A stretch of DNA of 64,000 nucleotides from Candidatus Aminicenantes bacterium (GTDB lineage: Bacteria; Acidobacteriota; Aminicenantia; Aminicenantales; UBA4085), in the NCBI GenBank assembly GCA_963803915.1, contig CAWDOL010000014.1, positions 99,987-163,986 of the forward strand, in the 5' to 3' direction. Positions 2,606-53,654 of the stretch are shown here, piece by piece (position 1 is the stretch's first letter; each line of letters starts with the position of its first letter). Position numbers and translations under genes: made by a program. Below the pieces are notes generated by a model, which did not search any database, was not told the DNA's origin, and saw only the letters and a program-made list of their open reading frames with translations.

Positions 2606-2758
2606 CGAAAAACGCCCTCCGCGTTCACGGCTTGGGAAATTCGGGCGGGAGGAAAGAGCGAATCGCGCGGCCCGCCCGAAGGGTAAAAACTCATGTTTTT
2701 GTATCTTCATGTGAACAAAAAATATTAGAATCTTAAGATTTTTTATGAATCATGCAGG
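2606..2758. other. AT-rich convergent intergenic spacer with a small A/T-tract hairpin motif (gcccgaagggtaaaaactcatgtttttg), shared with 46208-46236.
   Basis: Sharp GC drop relative to flanks. Lies between two convergent stops (2605 + and 2759 -). The motif recurs after the outer-membrane receptor gene at ~46210. Confidence 0.4.
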
Positions 2759-31717: not shown

Positions 31718-32905
31718 TTAATGAACCGTTCCAACTTCGCGAGCCGGGGCTTTTCTCCAGATCGGCGTCGAACAATCCCCGAAAAGGTGCCATCGCCTGA
31801 ACAGCCTTTCCGCCCGCTCCTTGCCGAGGGATTTCATGGCGGCCAGCGTCCCCCGGTAAAACAGCTCGCCGATCGTCTTGACGCTCTCATCGAAATAGAA
31901 AACCATGAAGACTTCTTTTTGGGCGGCGATGCAGGCGCCGGGGTCCATGGAGGTGGCGCCTCCCAGGAAGGCGATGGCCCCGGCCGGCTTTTCGACGGTT
32001 CCGGCTTTCATGAACGCTTCCGCCAGGCAATCGCCGTCCTCTATCCAGAAGCTTCCGGTGCTGCATGCCGCTCCATGGATGATCGGGAATCCCGTGTCGT
32101 GGTTTTTTAGTCCGGCCGCGTCCGTCCGCGAAAACGGGAGGCTTCCGAATGCGGTCGGGCTCCCGTGGCCGTGGTGGGCGATGAAATTGACTCCCGTCGT
32201 TTCGATCGCCTCGCGGATTTTTTGCGTGACGTCGGCATCCGATTCCATGATTTTTATCACCTGGTCAAAATAGTCCGGGCGGGCTTTCAGCCGGCCCTCC
32301 AGCTTGGCGGCGTGGTCCAGGCCGTCAAAGCCCGTCATCGAAGCGATGGCGGCCCGTCGAATCCATTCGAAATGCTCGAAATCGCCTTTTTCGTACTTGA
32401 GGATCTTGTTCAGCTGGTTTTTGAGCTCGGCCGGCGTATTGACGGAGATTCTCGAAATCAAGGCGTCTCCGATCAAGTCATCGCCTTCCAGAAGAGTATA
32501 GCTTGGGTCGGAGGGATATCCTTCCCTCCAGTATTCCCGAGATGACGGATCGGGGAGCATGAGGCTGGGGACATCGTCGATATCTCCGATCAGGATGATA
32601 TAGTCGAGGCCGCCTCGATCATACTTGTTCTGGAGTTTCTTCCGGATCCCTTCCGCGCCTTTTTCGGCCGAGAGAACATCGACCTCGACCTCAAAACCGC
32701 GGGATTTCTTCCAACGGATGTATTCGCCGAGGGTGCTTTGATATTTCGGAACGGAGACGATCAGCATCTTGTTTCCGAAAATCTCGCCCTTGGAAGGGTC
32801 GGGTTCCGGAGAAAGCGGCCGAAAGCTCGTTGCGCCCGACATCACGAGGAGGCAGAGGAAGAGGCCCGAGATGGGAGAAAGCATGGAATGTTTAAACCGG
32901 TTCAT
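31718..32905 (-). CDS. Peptidase C25 (gingipain-like) family cysteine peptidase, secreted
   Basis: Signal peptide MNRFKHSMLSPISGLFLCLLVMSGA. DYIILIGDIDDVP. Catalytic His/Cys contexts HHGHGSP and HGAACSTGSF. Lower GC than surroundings. Confidence 0.6.
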   Translation of the reverse strand: MNRFKHSMLSPISGLFLCLLVMSGATSFRPLSPEPDPSKGEIFGNKMLIVSVPKYQSTLGEYIRWKKSRGFEVEVDVLSAEKGAEGIRKKLQNKYDRGGLDYIILIGDIDDVPSLMLPDPSSREYWREGYPSDPSYTLLEGDDLIGDALISRISVNTPAELKNQLNKILKYEKGDFEHFEWIRRAAIASMTGFDGLDHAAKLEGRLKARPDYFDQVIKIMESDADVTQKIREAIETTGVNFIAHHGHGSPTAFGSLPFSRTDAAGLKNHDTGFPIIHGAACSTGSFWIEDGDCLAEAFMKAGTVEKPAGAIAFLGGATSMDPGACIAAQKEVFMVFYFDESVKTIGELFYRGTLAAMKSLGKERAERLFRRWHLFGDCSTPIWRKAPAREVGTVH

Positions 32906-33120
32906 GGTGGATATCTCTCCGAACGAACCCGAAATTTCGATCGAGATGGACATACTCTATACGCTGGAACCGGGCCGTTCGCTTCCTGAACGGATAAAGA
33001 AATCCTTGAGGGGGCCCTCCCGCTCACTAGTACTTCGGCCATAAAATTATGATACCAAAACCTATGTGTTGATGAACTGGTCCACGACGGCGGGCTCCGT
33101 GAGGAACGAGACGACCTTCA

Positions 33121-33200
33121 TAGCTGCGCCCCTTTTACAGCCTCTACCGCAAGATGGACGTCAAGAGCCGCCACGAGCTGATCCATAAGATCGGAGTCTA
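33121..33200 (+). pseudogene. Duplicated 3' fragment of the LuxR-family gene (SLYRKMDVKSRHELIHKIGVYG)
   Basis: ~75 bp nearly identical to 31500-31575. Forms direct repeats flanking the C25 peptidase gene. Confidence 0.6.
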
Positions 33201-33233
33201 CGGCGACGCGGACGGAGCGCCCGGGAAGGGCCA

Positions 33234-34721
33234 TCAGGACGATCGAGCGAGCAACAGATGGGCGGCCAGGAGCAGCGCCGCCGGGACGGCCAGGGCCGCA
33301 AACAGCCCCCAGCCCAAGCCCAGCAGGAGAAAGCCCAGAGCGGCGGCCGTCAGCGCGGCCAGGCTCTGCGGCAGCATGGTCTTGATGTGGTAGAGCGGCG
33401 GGATGCCGCAGGCGATTCCGGTCATCACCACCTTCTCCGAGTAGGGAATCAGATGTTCCCCCGCCACGGCTCCCGTGATGACCGCGCCGGAGAGGATGGG
33501 CAGCAGCGCCGGCTGGGCCAGGCCCAGGCTGTAGGCGACCGGGAGGATCAGGCTCATCGCCCCCCAGGAGAAGCCGGTAGCCACCGTCACGGCCGCGGCC
33601 AACAGGAAGCAGAGGGGAGGAAGAGCAGCGGGACCAAGCCAGGGGCCGATGGCCCCCGCCAGGTATGTGCCCGTCCCGAGGTCCACGGCCTGGCGAGAGA
33701 GGGCGGTGGCCAGGAGCATGATGAGAGAGACTTCGATCATGGCCAGCATGCCGCGGTGGAAGCTGCGCCGGATGTGAAGGTGCGACAGCACCCCATCCTT
33801 CCAGAGGAGCAGAGCCCCCACGGCCAGCGCCGCCAAAGTGGCCGCGATCAGGCCTTCGATCGGGTAGGCCCGGCGCAAGATCGTCTCGAGGCTCAGCGGC
33901 TCGCCGGCTTGCCGTGCGAACCAGGCGCCCGTGCCCAGCAACGCCGTGAAGGCGCCGCCCACCAGCACCGCCAGCGGGACGACGGCGTGGCGGGCGCGGG
34001 CGCCCTCGCCTTCGACGTTTTCGTCGAGGCGGGCGGGGAAGGACCGCTTGTCCGCCCGGGCGCCGAACCAGCGGCCCGTCCAGGCGACCGCCAAAGCCAG
34101 GCCTATCGCCAGGAAGGTGTAGAGGTGGTACGGCAGGGCCCGCAGGAAGAGAAGTGTGGCCGGAGCCTCGCGCCCGACCGAGGCGGCGGCCCTGGCCAAT
34201 TCCGAGCTCTCGAAGGCCGACCAGGTCGAAAGAAGCGCCGAGCTGGCCAGGATGGCGACCACGTCCACGATATAAGCCAGCATGGCCGGGGTCACCCGCA
34301 GCCGGTCCAGGACCGGACGCATGGCCGAACCGCTGATCAGGACGTTGGCGTAGTCGTCGAAAAACAGCCCGGCCGAGAGGCCCCAGGCGGCCATCCGGCC
34401 CCGGCGGGGTGTCGTCAGCCGCCGGGACAGGCGATGGGCCAGAGCGGCATAGGCCCCCGAGGCGCCGATCATCTCCAGCAGCCCGCCCACAAGGAGCAGG
34501 AAGATGACGATCTTGAGCTTGTCGACGTCGACCAGCCCGGCCGTCAGGGAAGCCCAGAAATAGCCGGCGCTGGGGGCGATGCGCCCCTGTCCCAGCACGA
34601 CCGCGCCGGTCAGGATCCCCAGCAGCAGCGCCAAAGGCAGCTTGCGGATGAAGACCGCGGCCAGGATGGTGACCAGGGCGGGCAGCAGGACGAGCAGGCC
34701 GGCGTCGGACATGGGGCTCAC
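33234..34721 (-). CDS. NhaC-family antiporter (Na+/H+ or substrate/product antiporter)
   Basis: 495 aa, about 12 TM, NhaC-family signature segments. The start overlaps the decarboxylase stop by 4 nt (operon). Confidence 0.7.
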   Translation of the reverse strand: MSPMSDAGLLVLLPALVTILAAVFIRKLPLALLLGILTGAVVLGQGRIAPSAGYFWASLTAGLVDVDKLKIVIFLLLVGGLLEMIGASGAYAALAHRLSRRLTTPRRGRMAAWGLSAGLFFDDYANVLISGSAMRPVLDRLRVTPAMLAYIVDVVAILASSALLSTWSAFESSELARAAASVGREAPATLLFLRALPYHLYTFLAIGLALAVAWTGRWFGARADKRSFPARLDENVEGEGARARHAVVPLAVLVGGAFTALLGTGAWFARQAGEPLSLETILRRAYPIEGLIAATLAALAVGALLLWKDGVLSHLHIRRSFHRGMLAMIEVSLIMLLATALSRQAVDLGTGTYLAGAIGPWLGPAALPPLCFLLAAAVTVATGFSWGAMSLILPVAYSLGLAQPALLPILSGAVITGAVAGEHLIPYSEKVVMTGIACGIPPLYHIKTMLPQSLAALTAAALGFLLLGLGWGLFAALAVPAALLLAAHLLLARSS

Positions 34722-46000: not shown

Positions 46001-46109
46001 TCGTTCCGACCTGGCCCAAGCGACCTACACGGCCTCCCCCTCCTACGGATCGATCCTCTCCTACTACGGGGTCCGGACCATCCGCATCGGGGCCAAGCTG
46101 AACTTCTAG
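43016..46109 (+). CDS. Carboxypeptidase-regulatory-like domain / TonB-dependent-receptor-like outer membrane protein (frameshifted ~45370-45690)
   Basis: Signal peptide, then CarboxypepD_reg-like RGRVVEPGGKPLADVSILIS. Long beta-rich body. C-terminal barrel ending ...RIGAKLNF (terminal Phe). Confidence 0.6.
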
Positions 46110-46314
46110 CCTGATTATTCACGAGTCGAGAGGGCCGTAGATGCAAGGCGCGGAGGGTGACGCTGTGCTAGTCGCACTGCGAACCCTTCGCAACGAAGCA
46201 GATGCGGTCGGATCGGCTTGCCCGAACGGTAAAAACTCATTTTTTAAAATCTTGTTCGCTTATACCGAGTCGAGATCGTCCCATACATGCTCGGGATGAG
46301 CGAGGCAAGTACCG

Positions 46315-46638
46315 CTATCTGCGCCTCGGCGTCTGTATCGAATTTCCATAGAAATGCGAGACGCTCAGGCTTTTTTGACTCAAGGCATTAAAAACCGGAG
46401 TATATTCTTTACCCTCCGGGGATAATTTATGGACATAGCCGCCATTGAACGATTCCATCATGACGACGAATACATTCGACGCGAGGGGATTTTGTTTTTC
46501 CCGGGGAACATCCAACGCCGCTTTATGGACGATCGGCTCGGCCGAGCCGGCCAAACGGAAGGAGCCGACGAAATGATCGACGATCGATCGCAAAAAATAA
46601 GTCATGTCGTTGTAGGCATACAACGGAGTCGCCATCAT
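46315..46638 (-). pseudogene. Fragment of a sulfatase / LTA-synthase-family gene in a low-GC block (46140-46905)
   Basis: NVFVVMMESFNGGYV and TPVFNALSQKSLSVSHFYG resemble the alkaline-phosphatase-superfamily N-terminal catalytic region. Truncated on both sides. GC around 45-50%. Confidence 0.4.
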
Positions 46639-46907
46639 GCCCGCCAGGACAAGGAGGAGCCAAAGACGTCGTGCGTCCCTGGCGATTTTTTGTCCGGGAA
46701 ACCATCAAGCTTCGTCGATAGGCGACCCATGCCCAAACGATTCCTCCGCCAGCAGAAGCAATGCCAGCTTGATGATTGGACAGTTTGGGAGCGGGTGGAA
46801 GGTGCATAGCGAGCCCGCCGGCCGCGATCATTGTAGCTGCTTCTAAACCCGAACGCCATCGATTTCGGGATCCTCGAAGCGAAGGCGTTTGAGCTGGGTG
46901 GAACATG

Positions 46908-47790
46908 TTAGGCCGTCATCGCCGCCATCGGCATCATCGAAGCCGCCGTCCCGAAATACAGGGAGGCCGGTGTCCGATAATCCAGGGCTTCGTGAAGCCG
47001 CTCCTCGTTGTAAAATCGGAAGTAATCGCCTAAACGCTTTTTGGCTTCCGCCACCGTTTGGTACTCGTGCAGATAAACCTCCTCGTATTTCACCGAACGC
47101 CACAGCCGCTCGATGAAAATGTTGTCGTAGACTCGGCCGCGGCCGTCCATGCTGACCCGAATGTCGTTCTGTTCCAGGAGTCCCGTGAAATCGGCGCTCG
47201 TAAATTGCGAACCCTGGTCCGTGTTGAAAATCTTCGGCTTCGAGATCTGCAGCGCTTGCCGGACGGCATCCAAACAAAAGCCCTGGTCCAGCGTCGTCGA
47301 GAGCCTCCAAGACAACACATACCGGCTGTGCCAATCCATCACCGCGACAAGATAAGCAAATCCGGTCGCCATTCGGATGTACGTTATGTCGGTACACCAC
47401 GCCAAATCGGGAGCGTCGACCGTCAGCCCTTTCAACAGATAGGGATAAACCTTGTGTTCCGCGCCGTTTAACGACAGCCGCGGTTTCGGATAGATGGCCA
47501 TCAAGCCCATCATCCGCATCAGTCGGCTGACCCGTTTCCGGTTGACTTCGTAACCCTGCGTCCGCAGCCAGGCCTTCATCCGCCGCACACCGTAGAACGG
47601 ATGCCGCAGGAACTCCTCGTCAATCAGACGCATGAGCCGCAGGTTCAATTCCGATTCGCCCTCGGGTTGGTAATAAAACGACGAACGGGACATGTCCAAA
47701 AGCTCGCACTGCCGGACGATCGACACGGCGGGAGATCCCGGTTCCACGAGAGTCCGCTTTTTCTCTACAGGAGTTGTTGCGACTTTTTTT
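46908..47790 (-). mobile_element. IS3-family transposase OrfB (DDE integrase core), 5'-truncated element retaining the A9G slippery site but no orfA
   Basis: ...FYYQPEGESELNLRLMRLIDEEFLRHPFYGVRRM...TDQGSQFTS...IERLWRSVKYEE (rve/DDE). aaaaaaaaag at 47785-47794. Confidence 0.75.
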
Positions 47791-48770
47791 TTAACCAGTC
47801 CAGCTCGACCTTGACTGAAGTCGACCGCCTTCTTCTGGGCTTCCTTGCCCGTCTGGTTGACGACCGTGACGAGCAGCTGGTCCTTGCCCTTGCCCAGGCG
47901 GGCGATCTTGGCCGCGTCCAGGATGTCGATGGGCACGTCCATCAGGAACTCCTGGCCCGAGCGGGCCAGCAGCTCGTCCTCGGCCAGGCTGACCGGGAAC
48001 GAGGCCTTGGACTCGAAGACAAGCTCCTTGTCCCCCGTCCGCACCTCGACGGCCACCTCGAACGTCGTCCGCAGGCGCTTGGCCTCGGAGGTGAACCAGA
48101 TCAGGCCGTAGGGCAGGCGCAGGCGGACCCGGGCCGCGATCCGCGCCGGGCCGCGCTCGAGAAAGGACAGCTCGAGCTCGTAGTCGAACCTCTTGCTCCC
48201 GGCCGGCAGGAAGCCCGCGCCGGGCCGGCCGGCGCGCGACTGGGCCGTGAGCTGGGAGATATCCAGCTCCCGGATCGGGGACATGTCGAAGGTCGACAGG
48301 CGGTAGCGGCCGGTGCAGTTCGAGTCGATGAAGACGACCGGGAAGTTGCCGTAGTACCAGATTTCGCTGCAGCGCATCGAGGTCTGGATCCGGTTGGGCT
48401 GGGTGTCGCGCTCCGTGGGGGGCCCGTAGAGGACGTAAATGCGGCCCCGATCGGTAAGGTAGCCGTCCTGGCCTTCGCCGACGAAGAGCTTCGCCGCCGC
48501 TTCGATGCGGTTCTCGTACTCCGTCTTCAGCTCGTTCTCCTCGGTCGCCGGGTCCGGATCGCGCTTCCGCCAGAAGGCCTCGACGAAGGCGGGCTTCTCC
48601 GCCTCGGGGAGGGCGATGAAGTCGCGGCGCTCCTCGTTGCTGATCAGGTACCGGACCTTGGCCAGGAACGCGGCGTCGGCGGGAGCGAGCTCCGCCGCGG
48701 ACTTGAACAGGGAACAGGCGGGCAGAAGGGCCGCCAGGAGAAGAATCAGGACCGGGATCTTCGCTTTCAT
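47791..48770 (-). CDS. GWxTD-domain lipoprotein (3' end fused to or interrupted by the IS3 remnant)
   Basis: Lipoprotein signal MKAKIPVLILLLAALLPAC. RDFIALPEAEKPAFVEAFWRKRDPDP...GYLTDRGRIYVLYGPPTE (GWxTD-like). RBS GGGAGAGG. No stop before the transposase frame. Confidence 0.5.
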
Positions 48771-48791
48771 GGCCTCTCCCCGGCCGGCGCT

Positions 48792-49475
48792 ACAGAGCGC
48801 TGGCCTTGGCGTAGTAGCGGTCGATGAACTTGGCCTGCACTTCGTAGGACCAGTGGACGTCCCGGATATGGGCGGCGGCCTCGGTCCGGAGCCTCTTGCG
48901 CGAGGAGGGCCACCAGCTCGGCATGCTCGCCGATGGAGGCCAGCTCCCACTCCTTGACGAATCCCTCCAGACGGGGAAAATCGTAGAGTCGCTTCTTCAG
49001 GAAAGCCACCGTTCTTTTCAGGTAGTCGTTCCCGGAATGGCGGAGGAAGACGTCGTGGAAGGCCAGGTTCTTCTCGTAATAGCGGTCGAAGTCGTCGCCC
49101 CCGATGGCCGCCTTCATCTCTCCGTTCAGGCGCTCCATCTGCCCGCGTCTCCGCCTCGCCGAGACGGTCGAAGGCCGCGAGCAGGGCGGCGCTTTCCAGG
49201 GCCCCGATGACCTCGTAGATGTCGCGGATGTCCTGCAGCGTCAGGACGTTGACCACGACCTTGCGGCGGGGCAGGATGGTGACGAAGCCCTCCATCTCCA
49301 GCTGCAGCAGCGCGTCGCGCAGCGGCGTCTTGCTGACGCCCAGCCGCTTGGACGTCTCCTCCATGTCGATGGCCGAGCCCGGGCGCAGTCCGCCCGTCCG
49401 CATCTGCTCGCGCAGGTGCTCGTAGACCTGCTCTTTCAGCGACTTGATGTTGAGTATGGGCTTGGAGTCCGTCAA
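48792..49475 (-). CDS. GntR-family regulator with FCD (FadR C-terminal) domain, 2 frameshifts
   Basis: HTH LKEQVYEHLREQMRTGGLRPGSAIDMEETSKRLGVSKTPLRDAL. FCD domain in the 48767-49138 ORF. Terminal ...YYAKASAL in a third frame. Confidence 0.6.
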
Positions 49476-50361: not shown

Positions 50362-52127
50362 AAGAAGCTGCTCTGCCTCGTCCGGCGTCGCCCTGCGGGT
50401 CAACTTCGGCCTGTCCGTCCTGCGGCCGCGGGAGATCCTGAAGAAGAAGAAGGACCTCTGGATGGTCGCCGCTGATCGGGCTCGGCCTGGTCGGCCTGGT
50501 CCCCGTCCTCGTCTACTATTTGAAAGGCCTCCGCTGGGTCTACAACCTGCTCGCCCCCATCGGCCAGCAGGCGGCCGTGCTGACCTTCGGCCTGCTGGCC
50601 GGGCAGTTCCTGATCCTCGTCTTCGGGTTCTACTACGTCATCTCGTCCTTCTATTTCTCCCGCGACCTGCCTCTCCTCGTCCCCCTCCCGGTGACGCCGA
50701 CCCAGGTCCTGCTGTCCAAGTTCACGGTCATCCTGGTCAACGAGTACGTGACGGCCGCTCCGCTCGTCCTGCCGGTCCTCATCCAGTACGGCCTCCTGTC
50801 CAAGGCCGGGCCCCGCTACTGGATCGAGGCCGTCCTGGTCTACCTGCTGCTGCCCGGTCATCCCCCTGGCCCTCGTCGCCCTCCTGGCCGTCGGCCTGAT
50901 GCGGGTGGTCAACGTCGGCCGCAAGAAGGACTTCCTGATCGTGGTCGGGAGCCTGATCCTGATGACCGCGGCGCTCGGGGGCCAGTACTCGCTCGAGCCG
51001 CTCCATGGGCGCGTCCGTCAACTCCGAGGCCATCGTCCGCCTGTTCGCCTCGCCCGACGGCTTTGTCCAGACCATCGGGGCCCGCTTCCCGCCCAGCGTC
51101 TGGGCCACCCGGGCCCTGGCCTTCGGCTTCCGCGCCCCCGGACCGGCCGGCGCCGCTGCTTTACCTGGGCCTGTCGCTCGGGCTTGTTCGCCGCTCATCC
51201 TGGCGCTTCGCGCCGCGTGTTCTACCGGGGCCTGATCGGGCTGAGCGAACGGCGGAACCCGGAGCAAAGCGCTGGGCCGCGGCACGCTCGAGCGCGAGCT
51301 CCGCGGCGGCCGGCGGCCGGTCCGGGCCGTCTTCATCCGGGAGCTGCGGATCATGAACCGGACGCCGATCTTCCTGCTCAACGGCGTGCTCTCGGCCGTC
51401 CTCATTCCGATCGTCTTCGTCGTGATGGGCAAGACCGGAACGCGGAACCGGCTCCGACTCGGCCCGCATCATCGGCCTCCTGGCCGTCGGCCAAGCCGGA
51501 GACGGCCATCCTGGGCACGGCCCTGTTCATGACCATCTGCGCCTGCCTCAACGGGACGGCGTCTTCGTCCTTCTCCCGGGAAGGCGCCCAGTTCTGGATG
51601 TCCAAGATCATTCCGGTCGCGCCGCGCGATCAGGTCCAAGGCAAGATCCTCCACTCCCTGGCCATCGCCGGGCTCGGGCTGGCCGCCGCCGCCGCGGCCG
51701 GCCCTTCGTCTTCGGCATGCAGCCCCTCCATCTGGCCGCCGCCCTGGCCGTGGCCCTGCCGGCGACGTTCGTGTTGACCGTGGTCAGCCTGATGATCGAC
51801 CTGGCCCGGCCTCTTCTCGTCTGGACCAACCCGCAGAAGGCCATCAAGCAGAACCTCAACGTCCTGCTGGCTTTCTTCGCCGACGCGGGAATTCTGTTTC
51901 TGGGCTTCTGGCTGGTCAGGGCCCTGGCCTCGACGGGGATGCGGACGGCCGTGCTGCTGGGCGCCGTGCTGGCCGTTTTCGCCGCGCTGGGGACGGCCGG
52001 CTACATCCTGCTGGGCGCCTTCGCCGAGCGCCGCTACGGGCCATCGAAGTCTAATCATCCCCAATGGGGCCTCGGCTCCGGCACGACGGCCCCCAAGATG
52101 CCGGGGGTCTACCAGAAGATGATGTAG
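50358..52127 (+). pseudogene. Large ABC transporter permease (~580 aa, polytopic), multiple frameshifts
   Basis: Start MKKLLCLV overlaps the ATPase stop (ATGA). Hydrophobic segments in the 50520, 50899 and 51717 ORFs. End MPGVYQKMM at 52127. Confidence 0.4.
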
Positions 52128-53654
52128 AGGACGAGCGTCGCGGCGATCAGAAGAGGCCCCATCCACTTGACGGCCCGGGCCGGGGTCATGTCGAAGCCCT
52201 GCTGGACCGGCATCGTCACCGGCACCTTGAGCGGCTTCAGTACTGTCATCACCGCCAGGACGACGAGCAGGATGACGAAGGTGATGGCCATCCTGTTGAG
52301 GAAGGCGATCGAGCGAGAACTTCCACATCAGCAAGCCGTAGATCGGAGCGTTGAGCAGGAGCGCGACCAGTCCGGCCGCGCGAGGCGTCTTCTTGACGAA
52401 CAGGCCGAAGATGAAGGCGGCCAGGATGCCGGGCGAGATGAAGCCCTGAAACTCCTGGATGTAGTTGAAGATGCCCTTGAACTTGGGGTTGCCGAGCTGG
52501 GGGGCGATGAGGCAGACGGCGACGACGAAGACGAGTGTCGACCAGCGGCCCAGTCGGAGCAGCGTCTTCTGATCGGCGTTCTTGTTGAGGTGCCGCTTGT
52601 AGATGTCCATGGTCAGGAGGGTGGCCACGGAGTTGAGGAGCGAGCCCAGGGTGCTGATGACCGCGCCGGCGATGGCCGCCAGGATGAAGCCGCGGATGCC
52701 GGGCCCGACGAGATTTTTGATCAGGAGCGGGTAGGCCTGGTCCGTGGTCGCCCCGGGTGCCGTAAGCTGCGCTTTGTACAGCTGCCAGGAGATGATCCCG
52801 GGCATGATGATGATGAAGGGAATGAAGAGCTTCAGCGCCGCGGCGAAGAGGATGCCGAGCTGTCCCTGCTTGAGGCTCTTGGCCGCCAGTGTTCTCTGGG
52901 TGATGAACTGGTTCAATCCCCAGTAGTAGAAGTTCGGGATCCACAGCCCCACGATCAGGGTCGTCCAGGGGATGATCGGGTGGTTCGCCGGCATGATGAC
53001 GTGCAGCTTGTCGGCGTTGGCCGAGACGAACAGGCCCACTCCCCCGACCGCCTTGAGGCCGACGATCAGGGTGACGATGCCGCCCAGGATCAGGGCCGAG
53101 CCCTGGAAGAGGTCGGCCCAGGCCACGGCCTTGAGCCCGCCCCAGGTCGTATACACGGCGGCCAGGATACCGATCAGCCAGACGGCCTTGACCAATTCGA
53201 GGCCGAAGATCGTGCTCAAGGCCAGGGCGCCCGTATAGACCACGGCCGCGATGCTGACGGCCACATACATGATCATCAGGAAGAAGGCCATCAGCCCGCG
53301 GGCCGCGGGCGTGTAGCGGTATTCCAGGTACTCGGGGATGGTGTAGATGCCGGCCTTCAGGAACTTGGGCAGGAAGAACAGCGCCACCACGACCAGGGTG
53401 ATGGCCGCCATCCACTCGTAGCAGGCCACGGCCAATCCGGCCGCGCCGGCGCCCTGGCCCGACATGCCGACAAAATGCTCGGTCGAGATGTTGGCCGCGA
53501 TCAGCGAAAAGCCGATCAGCGGCCAGACCAGGCTGCGACCGGCCAGGAAGAAATCCTCCCCCGAACGGCCTTTGCGGCTCTTGTACATGCTGACGCCGAT
53601 GACCAGGGCGAAGAAGGCGGCGAAGACGGTGACGTCGGCCCAATGCAGGTTCAT
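52109..53654 (-). CDS. Sodium:solute symporter family (SSS) transporter, frameshift near 52310
   Basis: MNLHWADVTVFAAFFALVIGVSMYKSRKGRSGEDFFLAGRSL, GLKAVAWADLFQ. The C-terminal last TM lies in the 52109-52291 ORF frame. Confidence 0.75.

What the first reader, a model, noticed from the sequence alone, without database searches (positions are those of the whole stretch)
46110..48770. IS3-family transposase remnant, low-GC block with a sulfatase-family gene fragment, and an in-frame read-through from a GWxTD lipoprotein gene
46140-46905 is markedly AT-richer than the genome and holds only a ~107-aa fragment of an LTA-synthase/sulfatase-family protein. Directly upstream on the minus strand lies an IS3-family OrfB (DDE). 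It is preceded by the family's A9G slippery site (47785-47794) but only about 10 codons of orfA, so the IS is 5'-truncated. Its frame is open into the GWxTD lipoprotein gene, which gives an artefactual 855-aa chimeric ORF together with the frameshifted GntR gene. This looks like the scar of an insertion-deletion event involving foreign DNA.
Basis: partly seen in the sequence, partly recalled or inferred. Interest (0 to 1): 0.55.

Follow-up and report, generated by a model that had tools for sequence, protein, structure and literature searches.

The report
Dead IS3 fragment in foreign-DNA scar
A 1.7-kb patchwork of foreign, lower-GC DNA (a transposon fragment cut at both ends, a piece of a broken membrane-enzyme gene and a short hairpin-forming tail) sits exactly between the overlapping stop codons of two host genes; it is an ordinary, inert scar of horizontal DNA acquisition whose only consequence is an accidental lipoprotein-transposase fusion ORF.

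Summary
Window 46110-47814 (1705 nt, 54.8% GC against 67-69% in the flanks) is an insertion. Nine orthologous Aminicenantes-like loci lack it; there the GWxTD gene (319 aa) and the convergent CarboxypepD_reg outer-membrane-protein gene overlap by 4 nt.

The insert has three parts:
- **A, 47814-46771.** An IS3-family fragment, 92% identical in nucleotides to a metagenomic copy. It lacks the first ~319 nt (left inverted repeat and nearly all of orfA).
- **B, 46770-~46247.** An internal fragment (aa ~160-320 of ~630) of an LtaS/phosphoglycerol-transferase-type sulfatase gene, with one in-frame stop and one frameshift.
- **C, 46246-46110.** A tail with no detectable homolog that folds into a ~100-nt hairpin.

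No host base was lost. GWxTD is complete to its last codon and lost only its stop. It joins the orfB frame by chance, giving the 620-aa chimera (855 aa including the frameshifted GntR ORF).

The best reading is non-transpositional (illegitimate or end-joining) capture of already degraded foreign DNA. The block is inert. Interest is low.

The parts
47815..48770 (-). GWxTD-domain lipoprotein gene, complete. ATG is at 48770 and the lipobox is LLPAC. Codon 319 (Ser) is AG(47816-47815) plus T(47814), the T coming from the insert. The native stop codon is lost.
   Evidence: Pfam GWxTD_dom 43.9 bits. The orthologs are 318-319 aa, up to 94% identical, and all end ...QKKAVDFS.
46110..47814 (.). The inserted block: 1705 nt at 54.8% GC. 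It is absent from all nine orthologous loci.
   Evidence: Collinearity with L003 and L165-L172 breaks exactly here. The empty site reads GTCGACTTCAGCTAAAAGTTCAGC. Composition.
46771..47814 (-). Segment A: a fragment of an IS3-family element, corresponding to about positions 320-1362 of a ~1375-bp IS. It lacks the IRL, most of orfA and the last 13 nt of the IRR.
   Evidence: 92.3% nt identity without gaps to L004 105-1148, and 85% to L002. Full-length relatives are 1370-1398 bp with TGAG...CTCA ends and 3-bp target duplications.
47765..47812 (-). orfA 3' stub: KVELDWLKKKSQQLL plus stop.
   Evidence: Three-frame translation. It aligns with the orfA 3' ends of L004 and L002.
47783..47792 (-). A9G run containing the A_AAA_AAG -1 frameshift heptamer. 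L004 carries the same A9G; L002 has A8G.
   Evidence: Sequence; alignment.
46908..47762 (-). orfB (DDE transposase, HTH_21 + rve). The reading frame is intact and the stop TAA is at 46910-46908. The frame stays open upstream into GWxTD.
   Evidence: Pfam and NCBIfam transpos_IS3 E 5.9e-81. dN/dS against the L004 copy is 0.16.
46771..46907 (-). IS 3' non-coding end with the inner part of the IRR (...AAGGTGCAT-type box, CTGTCCA). The IRR tip is missing.
   Evidence: Alignment with L004 and L002; IR definition in full-length relatives.
46247..46770 (-). Segment B: an internal pseudogene fragment of an LtaS/phosphoglycerol-transferase-type sulfatase gene. It holds the last TM helix, the linker and the first ~90 aa of the catalytic domain, i.e. 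aa ~160-320 of ~630. There is an in-frame TGA at 46707-46705 and a frameshift near 46330.
   Evidence: phmmer against 1.84 billion proteins; Pfam on the hits; tblastn and phmmer of the reconstructed translation, E 5.6e-33 to P0252; source name of P0252.
46110..46246 (+). Segment C: a tail with no detectable homolog. On the + strand it folds into a ~100-nt imperfect hairpin (46122-46220). This is followed by GCCCGAACGGTAAAAACTCATTTTTTA (46220-46246), a motif that also occurs at 2674-2700.
   Evidence: MFE -57.7 kcal/mol with z -4.0 on the + strand and z -1.6 on the - strand. Motif search: 2 matches against 0 expected. No Rfam, tRNA or phage hit.
42970..46109 (+). Convergent CarboxypepD_reg/OMP beta-barrel gene. 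Its stop TAG at 46107-46109 is intact. Two single extra bases (45374, 45470) break the frame in this assembly.
   Evidence: Pfam. The orthologs are 1029 aa and overlap GWxTD by 4 nt. Indels.
48790..49475 (-). GntR/FCD regulator gene, split by two single extra bases (49141, 48901). Its shifted frame runs open into GWxTD, which produces the 855-aa ORF.
   Evidence: Pfam GntR and FCD on separate frames. Intact 227-aa orthologs in L166, L167, L171 and L172. Indel positions.

Best explanation
Window 46110-47814 is an inert scar. It is a 1705-bp piece of foreign, lower-GC DNA inserted exactly into the 4-nt stop-codon overlap of two convergent host genes, GWxTD lipoprotein and CarboxypepD_reg outer-membrane protein, in an Aminicenantes-like acidobacterium.

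The piece is a mosaic of three parts:
- an IS3-family element that has lost both ends (IRL and orfA on one side, the last 13 nt of the IRR on the other);
- an internal fragment of an LtaS/phosphoglycerol-transferase-type sulfatase pseudogene;
- a 137-nt hairpin-forming tail.

Neither border of the insert is an IS end, and no usable IS end remains. It therefore did not arrive by IS3 transposition and cannot move again.

The most likely route (inferred, about 0.45-0.5) is one-step illegitimate integration, by end joining or microhomology-mediated joining at a break, of an already degraded fragment from a donor genome. The target lost nothing. The junction destroyed the GWxTD stop codon and happened to fall in the orfB reading frame (a 1-in-3 chance). 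This created a GWxTD::OrfB read-through ORF that has no designed function.
For: **The insertion and its site**
- Nine orthologous loci, 77-91% nt identical, have the conserved order ABC-GntR-GWxTD / OMP with GTCGACTTCAGCTAAAAGTTCAGC at the site. The window is collinear with them on both sides, up to 47815 and from 46110/46109.
- GWxTD orthologs all end at ...DFS.
- Composition: 54.8% GC against 67-69% in the flanks, and GC3 of 61-74% against 91-95%.

**The IS fragment**
- Homology to L004 runs 47814-46771 at 92.3% with no gaps.
- Full-length relatives define the ends as TGAG...CTCA with 3-bp target duplications. The window has neither end.
- orfB is intact, with dN/dS 0.16 against L004. The fragment therefore came from a recently functional IS.

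**The other two segments**
- The sulfatase fragment is internal, matching aa ~160-320 of its relatives.
- The tail has no homolog.

**The left junction**
- The L004-type donor sequence (GGCCAAC|TCAAGG) shares no microhomology with the host TTCAG|, which fits blunt end joining.
Against: - The donor arrangement A|B|C was not found anywhere. The only database hit to the sulfatase ORF above 45% identity is this genome itself. The 'pre-assembled mosaic' is therefore inferred.
- TCAG occurs at both borders (host ...CTTCAG|, insert ...AATCAG G|CTAG). This could be read as microhomology or as a quasi target duplication, and an extra G is left unexplained.
- The assembly carries about one single-base indel per 600 nt. 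Base-level details of the junctions, the sulfatase frameshift and the reading frame of the fusion are therefore not fully trustworthy.
- No reads or second assembly of this strain were available to confirm that the insertion is physically real.
Confidence: 0.75

Rival explanations
1. In-situ decay. A larger foreign island, or a complete IS followed by further insertions, integrated here. Internal deletions later trimmed it to today's 1.7 kb.
For: The block contains at least two internal breakpoints: IS/sulfatase at 46771|46770 and sulfatase/tail near 46247. The sulfatase fragment carries a nonsense codon and a frameshift. Both are typical of decaying DNA.
Against: - The left host border is perfectly preserved and abuts the middle of the IS. 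A deletion that removed the IRL and orfA would have had to stop exactly at the last host base.
- A transposed IS would have its IRL at that border plus a 3-bp duplication, as in the relatives. Neither is present.
- orfB shows no decay: the frame is open and dN/dS is 0.16.
Confidence: 0.2
2. Assembly artefact. The 1.7-kb block was spliced into the contig by a chimeric long read or a mis-join, and does not exist in the organism.
For: The assembly is error-prone: seven single-base indels against intact short-read orthologs over ~3.9 kb. The block's composition is alien. Only one assembly, a 629,408-nt contig, carries the chimera.
Against: - An artefact would need two chimeric junctions that return to exactly the same base of the host, with no loss or duplication beyond one G.
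- The IS fragment aligns to L004 without a single indel over 1044 nt, so this region is well resolved.
- Assemblers build consensus from many reads.
Confidence: 0.1
3. The GWxTD::OrfB fusion is a functional, selected protein (a domesticated transposase domain on a lipoprotein), or the fragment still acts as a mobile element.
For: The 620-aa frame is open in the assembly and gene callers predict it. orfB is intact.
Against: - No ortholog has the extension.
- The junction frame is a 1-in-3 accident that depends on one base in an indel-prone assembly.
- OrfB alone lacks the OrfA DNA-binding part, and both IS ends are missing.
- A Sec/lipobox-exported transposase would not reach DNA.
Confidence: 0.02

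Closest known systems
IS3-family insertion sequences (OrfA/OrfB with -1 programmed frameshift, DDE transposase, copy-out-paste-in; e.g. ISSau2 as described in PMC5771124)
   Same: - OrfB has HTH_21 and rve domains and passes NCBIfam transpos_IS3.
- The A_AAA_AAG slippery motif is present, with orfB in the -1 frame relative to the orfA stub.
- Full-length relatives are 1.37-1.40 kb with 5'-TG...CA-3' inverted repeats and 3-bp target duplications.
   Different: - The window copy is only nt ~320-1362 of the element. It has no IRL, no functional orfA, no IRR tip and no target duplication, so it is a dead fragment and not an IS.
- The lineage itself is undescribed. The best genome-collection relative is 63% aa identical, the best plasmid match is ~66% nt identical, and 92%-identical copies are known only from metagenomes.
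LtaS / phosphoglycerol transferase (OpgB/MdoB-type) membrane-anchored sulfatase-superfamily enzymes (Pfam PF00884)
   Same: The fragment aligns at 38-47% identity to residues ~160-320 of ~600-645-aa proteins. This region covers the last TM helix, the linker and the start of the Sulfatase domain, including the N(V/I)F(V/I)xxxES metal-site motif.
   Different: Only about a quarter of the gene is present. It is interrupted by a stop and a frameshift, has no N-terminal TM bundle and lacks most of the catalytic domain. No close homolog (above 47% identity) was found in 1.84 billion representatives.
Illegitimate integration of foreign DNA at breaks or microhomologies in bacteria (double illegitimate recombination, SPDIR as in bioRxiv 10.1101/2023.11.22.568220; Ku/LigD end joining, from my own knowledge)
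   Same: Non-homologous DNA is inserted with 0-4 nt of junction homology, with no recombinase or transposase signature and no loss of target sequence.
   Different: - SPDIR patches are short microindels, whereas this insert is 1.7 kb.
- The mechanism is inferred from the product only.
- The host's competence and end-joining genes were not examined.
IS copies lacking target-site duplications after IS-mediated rearrangements (PMC11708052)
   Same: An IS-derived sequence without flanking duplication, next to unrelated DNA.
   Different: Those cases keep intact IS ends and arise by recombination or transposition between copies. Here both IS ends are gone and no second copy is seen in the window.

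Membership tests
IS3 family insertion sequence | DDE transposase OrfB with an rve catalytic core, matching the family model | tested here: met
   Pfam rve 4e-21, HTH_21 2e-18, rve_3 6e-14. NCBIfam transpos_IS3 scores 272.6 bits against a cutoff of 160, covering profile positions 84-367 of 369.
IS3 family insertion sequence | Two overlapping ORFs (orfA, orfB) joined by a -1 frameshift at an A6G/A7-type slippery motif | tested here: inconclusive
   The slippery A9G (47792-47783) and the correct -1 frame relation are present. Only 15 codons of orfA remain, so the OrfA HTH part is absent.
IS3 family insertion sequence | Terminal inverted repeats ending 5'-TG...CA-3' | tested here: not met
   Relatives have TGAG...CTCA inverted repeats. 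The window has no IRL, and its IRR stops 13 nt short of the tip.
IS3 family insertion sequence | 3-5 bp target-site duplication flanking the element | tested here: not met
   Relatives L090, L088 and L093 have 3-bp duplications. In the window neither IS end exists, and the borders of the whole insert share only TCAG with an unexplained extra G.
IS3 family insertion sequence | Full length of about 1.2-1.55 kb | tested here: not met
   The fragment is 1044 nt, against 1370-1398 nt in full-length relatives.
LtaS / phosphoglycerol-transferase-type sulfatase (PF00884) | Sulfatase-domain match above the Pfam threshold | tested here: not met
   The fragment alone scores 12.7 bits against a cutoff of 25, E 0.08, on profile positions 1-49. 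Homology is nevertheless secure through full-length proteins: E 1e-20 to 6e-33, and those scanned carry the domain.
LtaS / phosphoglycerol-transferase-type sulfatase (PF00884) | N-terminal multi-TM anchor plus a complete extracytoplasmic catalytic domain (~600-650 aa) | tested here: not met
   Only residues ~160-320 are represented, with one in-frame TGA and one frameshift.
GWxTD-domain protein (PF20094) | GWxTD domain above threshold and full length relative to orthologs | tested here: met
   43.9 bits against a cutoff of 26.9. The protein aligns end to end with 318-319-aa orthologs (94-62% identity) up to the final Ser.

The most novel reading that the evidence does not exclude
The block may be a natural record of one-step, loss-free end joining of patchwork foreign DNA at a double-strand break, located exactly in the 4-nt overlap of two convergent genes in an uncultured phylum. 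Its 137-nt tail (a + strand hairpin with z -4.0, plus the motif GCCCGAASGGTAAAAACTCAT that also lies downstream of another + strand gene at 2674) may be a host-type structured 3' module or terminator. That module would now terminate the outer-membrane-protein transcript, making it a new small RNA or terminator element that can be copied between intergenic sites.
Probability: 0.15. Interest if true: 0.35.

Novelty: new member of a known kind. Interest (0 to 1): 0.15.

Why it matters
The finding matters mainly for annotation hygiene.

- The block should be annotated as an IS3-family pseudogene fragment plus a sulfatase pseudogene fragment. GWxTD should end at Ser319, not continue as a 620-aa or 855-aa protein.
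- The chimera already contaminates a public protein clustering. A 90%-identity cluster joins GWxTD lipoproteins with IS3 transposases through it.

Biologically it is a clean, base-resolved example of non-transpositional acquisition of foreign DNA in an Aminicenantes-like genome. The empty site is conserved in nine relatives. It shows that IS sequences can enter a genome as passive cargo and not only by transposition.

It opens no new question of general importance.

Tried and rejected
- **Second or full-length copy of the IS in the window.** blastn and tblastn against the window found none.
- **Inverted repeats around the IS in the window.** The repeat finder gave only chance-level pairs. The true IRs had to be defined from relatives.
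- **Locating the window's own genome or the donor.**
  - The exact-protein look-ups of the 855-aa ORF, P0241 and P0247 were not on record.
  - The genome-contig scan gave relatives of at most 63% identity.
  - The metagenome scan gave at most 77%.
  - The closest copy, P0245 on a 107-kb contig, has no retrievable DNA.
- **Word-index protein search with the sulfatase fragment.** It returned only the fragment itself. The exhaustive HMMER search was needed.
- **Phage or plasmid vector.** Plasmid hits are distant IS3 copies only. There is no phage hit to segments B and C. Viral contigs hold IS relatives of at most 51% identity, and the tail motif is absent from viral contigs and from all fetched loci.
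- **tRNA or Rfam element at the site.** None was found.
- **Terminator and promoter consensus scan.** Nothing exceeded the shuffled expectation.
- **A 7-nt microhomology (TTCAGCT) between the IS interior and the target.** This was considered on the basis of L002. It was rejected as unproven because the closer relative L004 reads GGCCAAC there.
- **An imperfect inverted repeat near the insert ends.** TCAAGGTCGAGCTGG (47814-47800) resembles TCACGAGTCGAGAGGG (46119-46134). One arm is 9 nt from the border and lies inside the tail hairpin, so I treated it as coincidence.
Full report
**What is there.**
On the minus strand the region reads, in order:
- a GntR/FCD regulator (49475-48790);
- a GWxTD-domain lipoprotein (ATG at 48770);
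- with no stop in between, an IS3-type OrfB that ends at TAA 46910-46908.

Together these form an 855-aa ORF. The convergent CarboxypepD_reg/beta-barrel outer-membrane-protein (OMP) gene on the plus strand ends at TAG 46107-46109.

The stretch between the two host genes is compositionally alien. 46110-47814 is 54.8% GC, against 69.3% and 66.9% in the 5-kb flanks. It is the lowest-GC 1705-nt window of the 64 kb. GC3 is 95% in GWxTD and 91% in the OMP gene, but 74% in orfB and 61.5% in the sulfatase fragment.

**The empty site.**
GWxTD orthologs (94% to 62% identical) are 318-319 aa long and all end ...QKKAVDFS. The window protein matches them to the last residue and then continues QGRAGLVKKKV....

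Nine orthologous loci were fetched: L003, L165-L170, L171 and L172. They come from ENA, JGI, NCBI and Logan assemblies of Aminicenantes-like bacteria. All share the order ABC ATPase / GntR (227 aa) / GWxTD (319 aa) / OMP (1029 aa, opposite strand). In all of them the last two genes overlap by 4 nt.
- Their sequence at the site is GTCGACTTCAGCTAAAAGTTCAGCTTGG.
- The window's left border reads GTCGACTTCAG|TCAAGGTCGAG....
- The window's right border reads ...GAATAATCAGG|CTAGAAGTTCAGCTTGG.

The window is collinear with these loci up to 47815 and again from 46110/46109. The insert is therefore 46110-47814 (1705 nt), and no host base is missing. The GWxTD stop codon, ancestrally the TAG of AGC-TAG, was separated from the gene. 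The last Ser codon is now AG+T, with the T supplied by the insert.

**Segment A, the IS fragment.**
OrfB has HTH_21 and rve domains and passes the NCBIfam IS3 model. In the +1 frame the insert begins KVELDWLKKKSQQLL*. This is the 3' end of orfA and contains the A_AAA_AAG heptamer within an A9G run (47792-47783). The closest relative has the same A9G.

The closest copies are metagenomic:
- P0246 on locus L004, 92.3% nt identity over window 47814-46771 without any gap;
- L002 (identical to L001), 85% nt identity;
- further relatives at 66-77%.

Full-length relatives (L090, L088, L093, L002) are 1370-1398 bp. They have imperfect terminal inverted repeats that start TGAG and end CTCA, and three of the four have clean 3-bp target duplications.

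Against this template the window copy starts at about element position 320, so it has no IRL and no OrfA. It stops at 46771. L004 continues ...CCATC-GGGGGGCACTTCA to the IS end, whereas the window continues ...TCATC-AAGCTGGCATTGC, which is unrelated. Both ends are therefore missing.

orfB itself is undamaged. Its divergence from L004 has dN/dS 0.16. The fragment thus derives from a recently functional IS and not from an ancient relic.

No other copy is present in the window. Species-representative genomes, plasmids and viral contigs hold only distant relatives.

**Segment B, the sulfatase fragment.**
The 107-aa ORF gave nothing in Pfam. A frame-corrected version gave only a sub-threshold Sulfatase hit. 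A word-indexed search found only the ORF itself, P0241, from a 629,408-nt NCBI/ENA contig.

An exhaustive HMMER search found 210 relatives. The best are ~600-645-aa proteins matched at their residues ~160-290. Those I scanned carry a full Sulfatase domain. One is named phosphoglycerol transferase I from a Phycisphaerae MAG.

tblastn and phmmer with the reconstructed translation place the homology at about 46670-46247. There is a frame switch near 46330 and an in-frame TGA at 46707-46705.

The piece is an internal quarter of the gene, damaged, and at most 47% identical to anything known.

**Segment C, the tail.**
The last 137 nt (46246-46110) match nothing in plasmids, phages, Rfam or tRNA models. 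On the plus strand, which is the OMP gene's strand, they fold into a ~100-nt imperfect hairpin at 46122-46220. Its MFE is -57.7 kcal/mol with z -4.0; the minus strand gives z -1.6.

The hairpin is followed by GCCCGAACGGTAAAAACTCATTTTTTA. A near-identical 27-mer lies at 2674-2700, also just downstream of a plus-strand gene in a spacer between convergent genes. It matches twice against zero expected by chance. I could not determine what this element is.

**How it most likely arose.**
Neither border of the insert is an IS end, and the IS piece has no ends, so IS3 transposition did not put it there. In-situ trimming of a normally transposed IS would require a deletion that stopped exactly at the last host base. 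It would also require separate insertion of B and C behind the IRR.

The simplest account is a single illegitimate joining of a linear, already mosaic donor fragment into a break in the TTCAG|CTAG overlap:
- Junction homology is minimal. There is none on the left if the donor IS was L004-like (GGCCAAC|TCAAGG).
- TCAG is shared on the right, with one unexplained extra G.
- This is the product expected of end joining or double illegitimate recombination (mechanism from my own knowledge; SPDIR as described in bioRxiv 10.1101/2023.11.22.568220).

I put about 0.45-0.5 on this route, 0.2 on in-situ decay of a larger island and 0.1 on an assembly artefact. The descriptive conclusion (foreign mosaic insert, dead IS fragment, accidental fusion) I hold at about 0.75-0.8.

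**Quality caveat.**
Against intact short-read orthologs that are 90% identical (L165-L170), the window shows seven single-base indels in ~3.9 kb:
- two inside GntR (49141, 48901);
- two inside the OMP gene (45470, 45374);
- one in the ABC ATPase gene (50156);
- two in non-coding DNA: one upstream of GntR (49540) and one in the GntR-GWxTD spacer (48782).

These look like residual assembly errors, so the 'frameshifted GntR' is probably not biological. The reading frame across the junction and the sulfatase frameshift rest on base calls of the same quality. By contrast, the GWxTD gene and the IS fragment show no indels against their relatives.

**Consequences.**
- GWxTD keeps its full native sequence but, as assembled, runs on for 301 codons into the orfB frame.
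- Public gene calling records this as a 620-aa protein, P0247. Through it a 90%-identity cluster merges GWxTD proteins with IS3 transposases P0245 and P0246.
- The OMP gene keeps its stop codon and now has the hairpin tail as its 3' flank.
- Nothing suggests function for the fusion, and the fragment cannot transpose.

**Verdict.**
This is an ordinary scar of horizontal DNA acquisition, now resolved to the base. In novelty it is a new, dead member of a known kind, and interest is low.

Noticed in passing
window 46220-46246 and 2674-2700 (+ strand): A 27-nt motif, GCCCGAA(C/G)GGTAAAAACTCAT(T/G)TTTTT, occurs twice with one mismatch (0 expected by chance). Both copies lie ~70-110 nt downstream of a + strand gene, in AT-rich DNA facing a - strand gene. 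It may be a host terminator or 3' module, or a small repeat element.
   Followed up: partly
window 46122-46220 (+ strand): A ~100-nt imperfect hairpin in the insert's tail. MFE is -57.7 kcal/mol with z -4.0 on the + strand and only -1.6 on the - strand. It has no Rfam match and its origin is unknown.
   Followed up: partly
window 49141, 48901 (GntR); 45470, 45374 (OMP); 50156 (ABC ATPase); 49540, 48782 (non-coding): Single-base indels, six extra bases and one missing, relative to intact short-read orthologs that are 90% identical. Other genes in the window (the SSS transporter at 51630-53654 and the ABC permease region at 50520-51780) also look split. This is probably residual long-read assembly error and not pseudogenisation.
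   Followed up: partly
window 32200-33250: A second lower-GC stretch (52-57% GC). It covers the 5' half of a Peptidase_C25 (gingipain-like) gene at 31718-32953 (-) and its upstream region.
   Followed up: no
protein cluster of P0121 (public 90%-identity clustering): The 620-aa GWxTD::OrfB chimera of this genome (P0247) causes GWxTD lipoproteins and IS3 transposases (P0245, P0246) to be placed in one cluster. This is a database artefact that could mislead annotation transfer.
   Followed up: yes
L002:2502-3876 (= L001), JGI Ga0315284_10002107: An 85%-identical IS copy sits inside a polysaccharide-biosynthesis locus, between a Wzy_C gene and glycosyltransferase genes. It is itself degenerate: A8G instead of A9G, an in-frame TAG in orfA, and no target duplication.
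   Followed up: partly
L003 (ENA ERZ25039545 contig_181153): This orthologous long-read contig differs from the window by 129 mostly single-base gaps over 9.8 kb. The short-read orthologs differ by only 7 over ~3.9 kb. L003 is therefore much more indel-ridden than the window, and its GntR gene is also split.
   Followed up: yes
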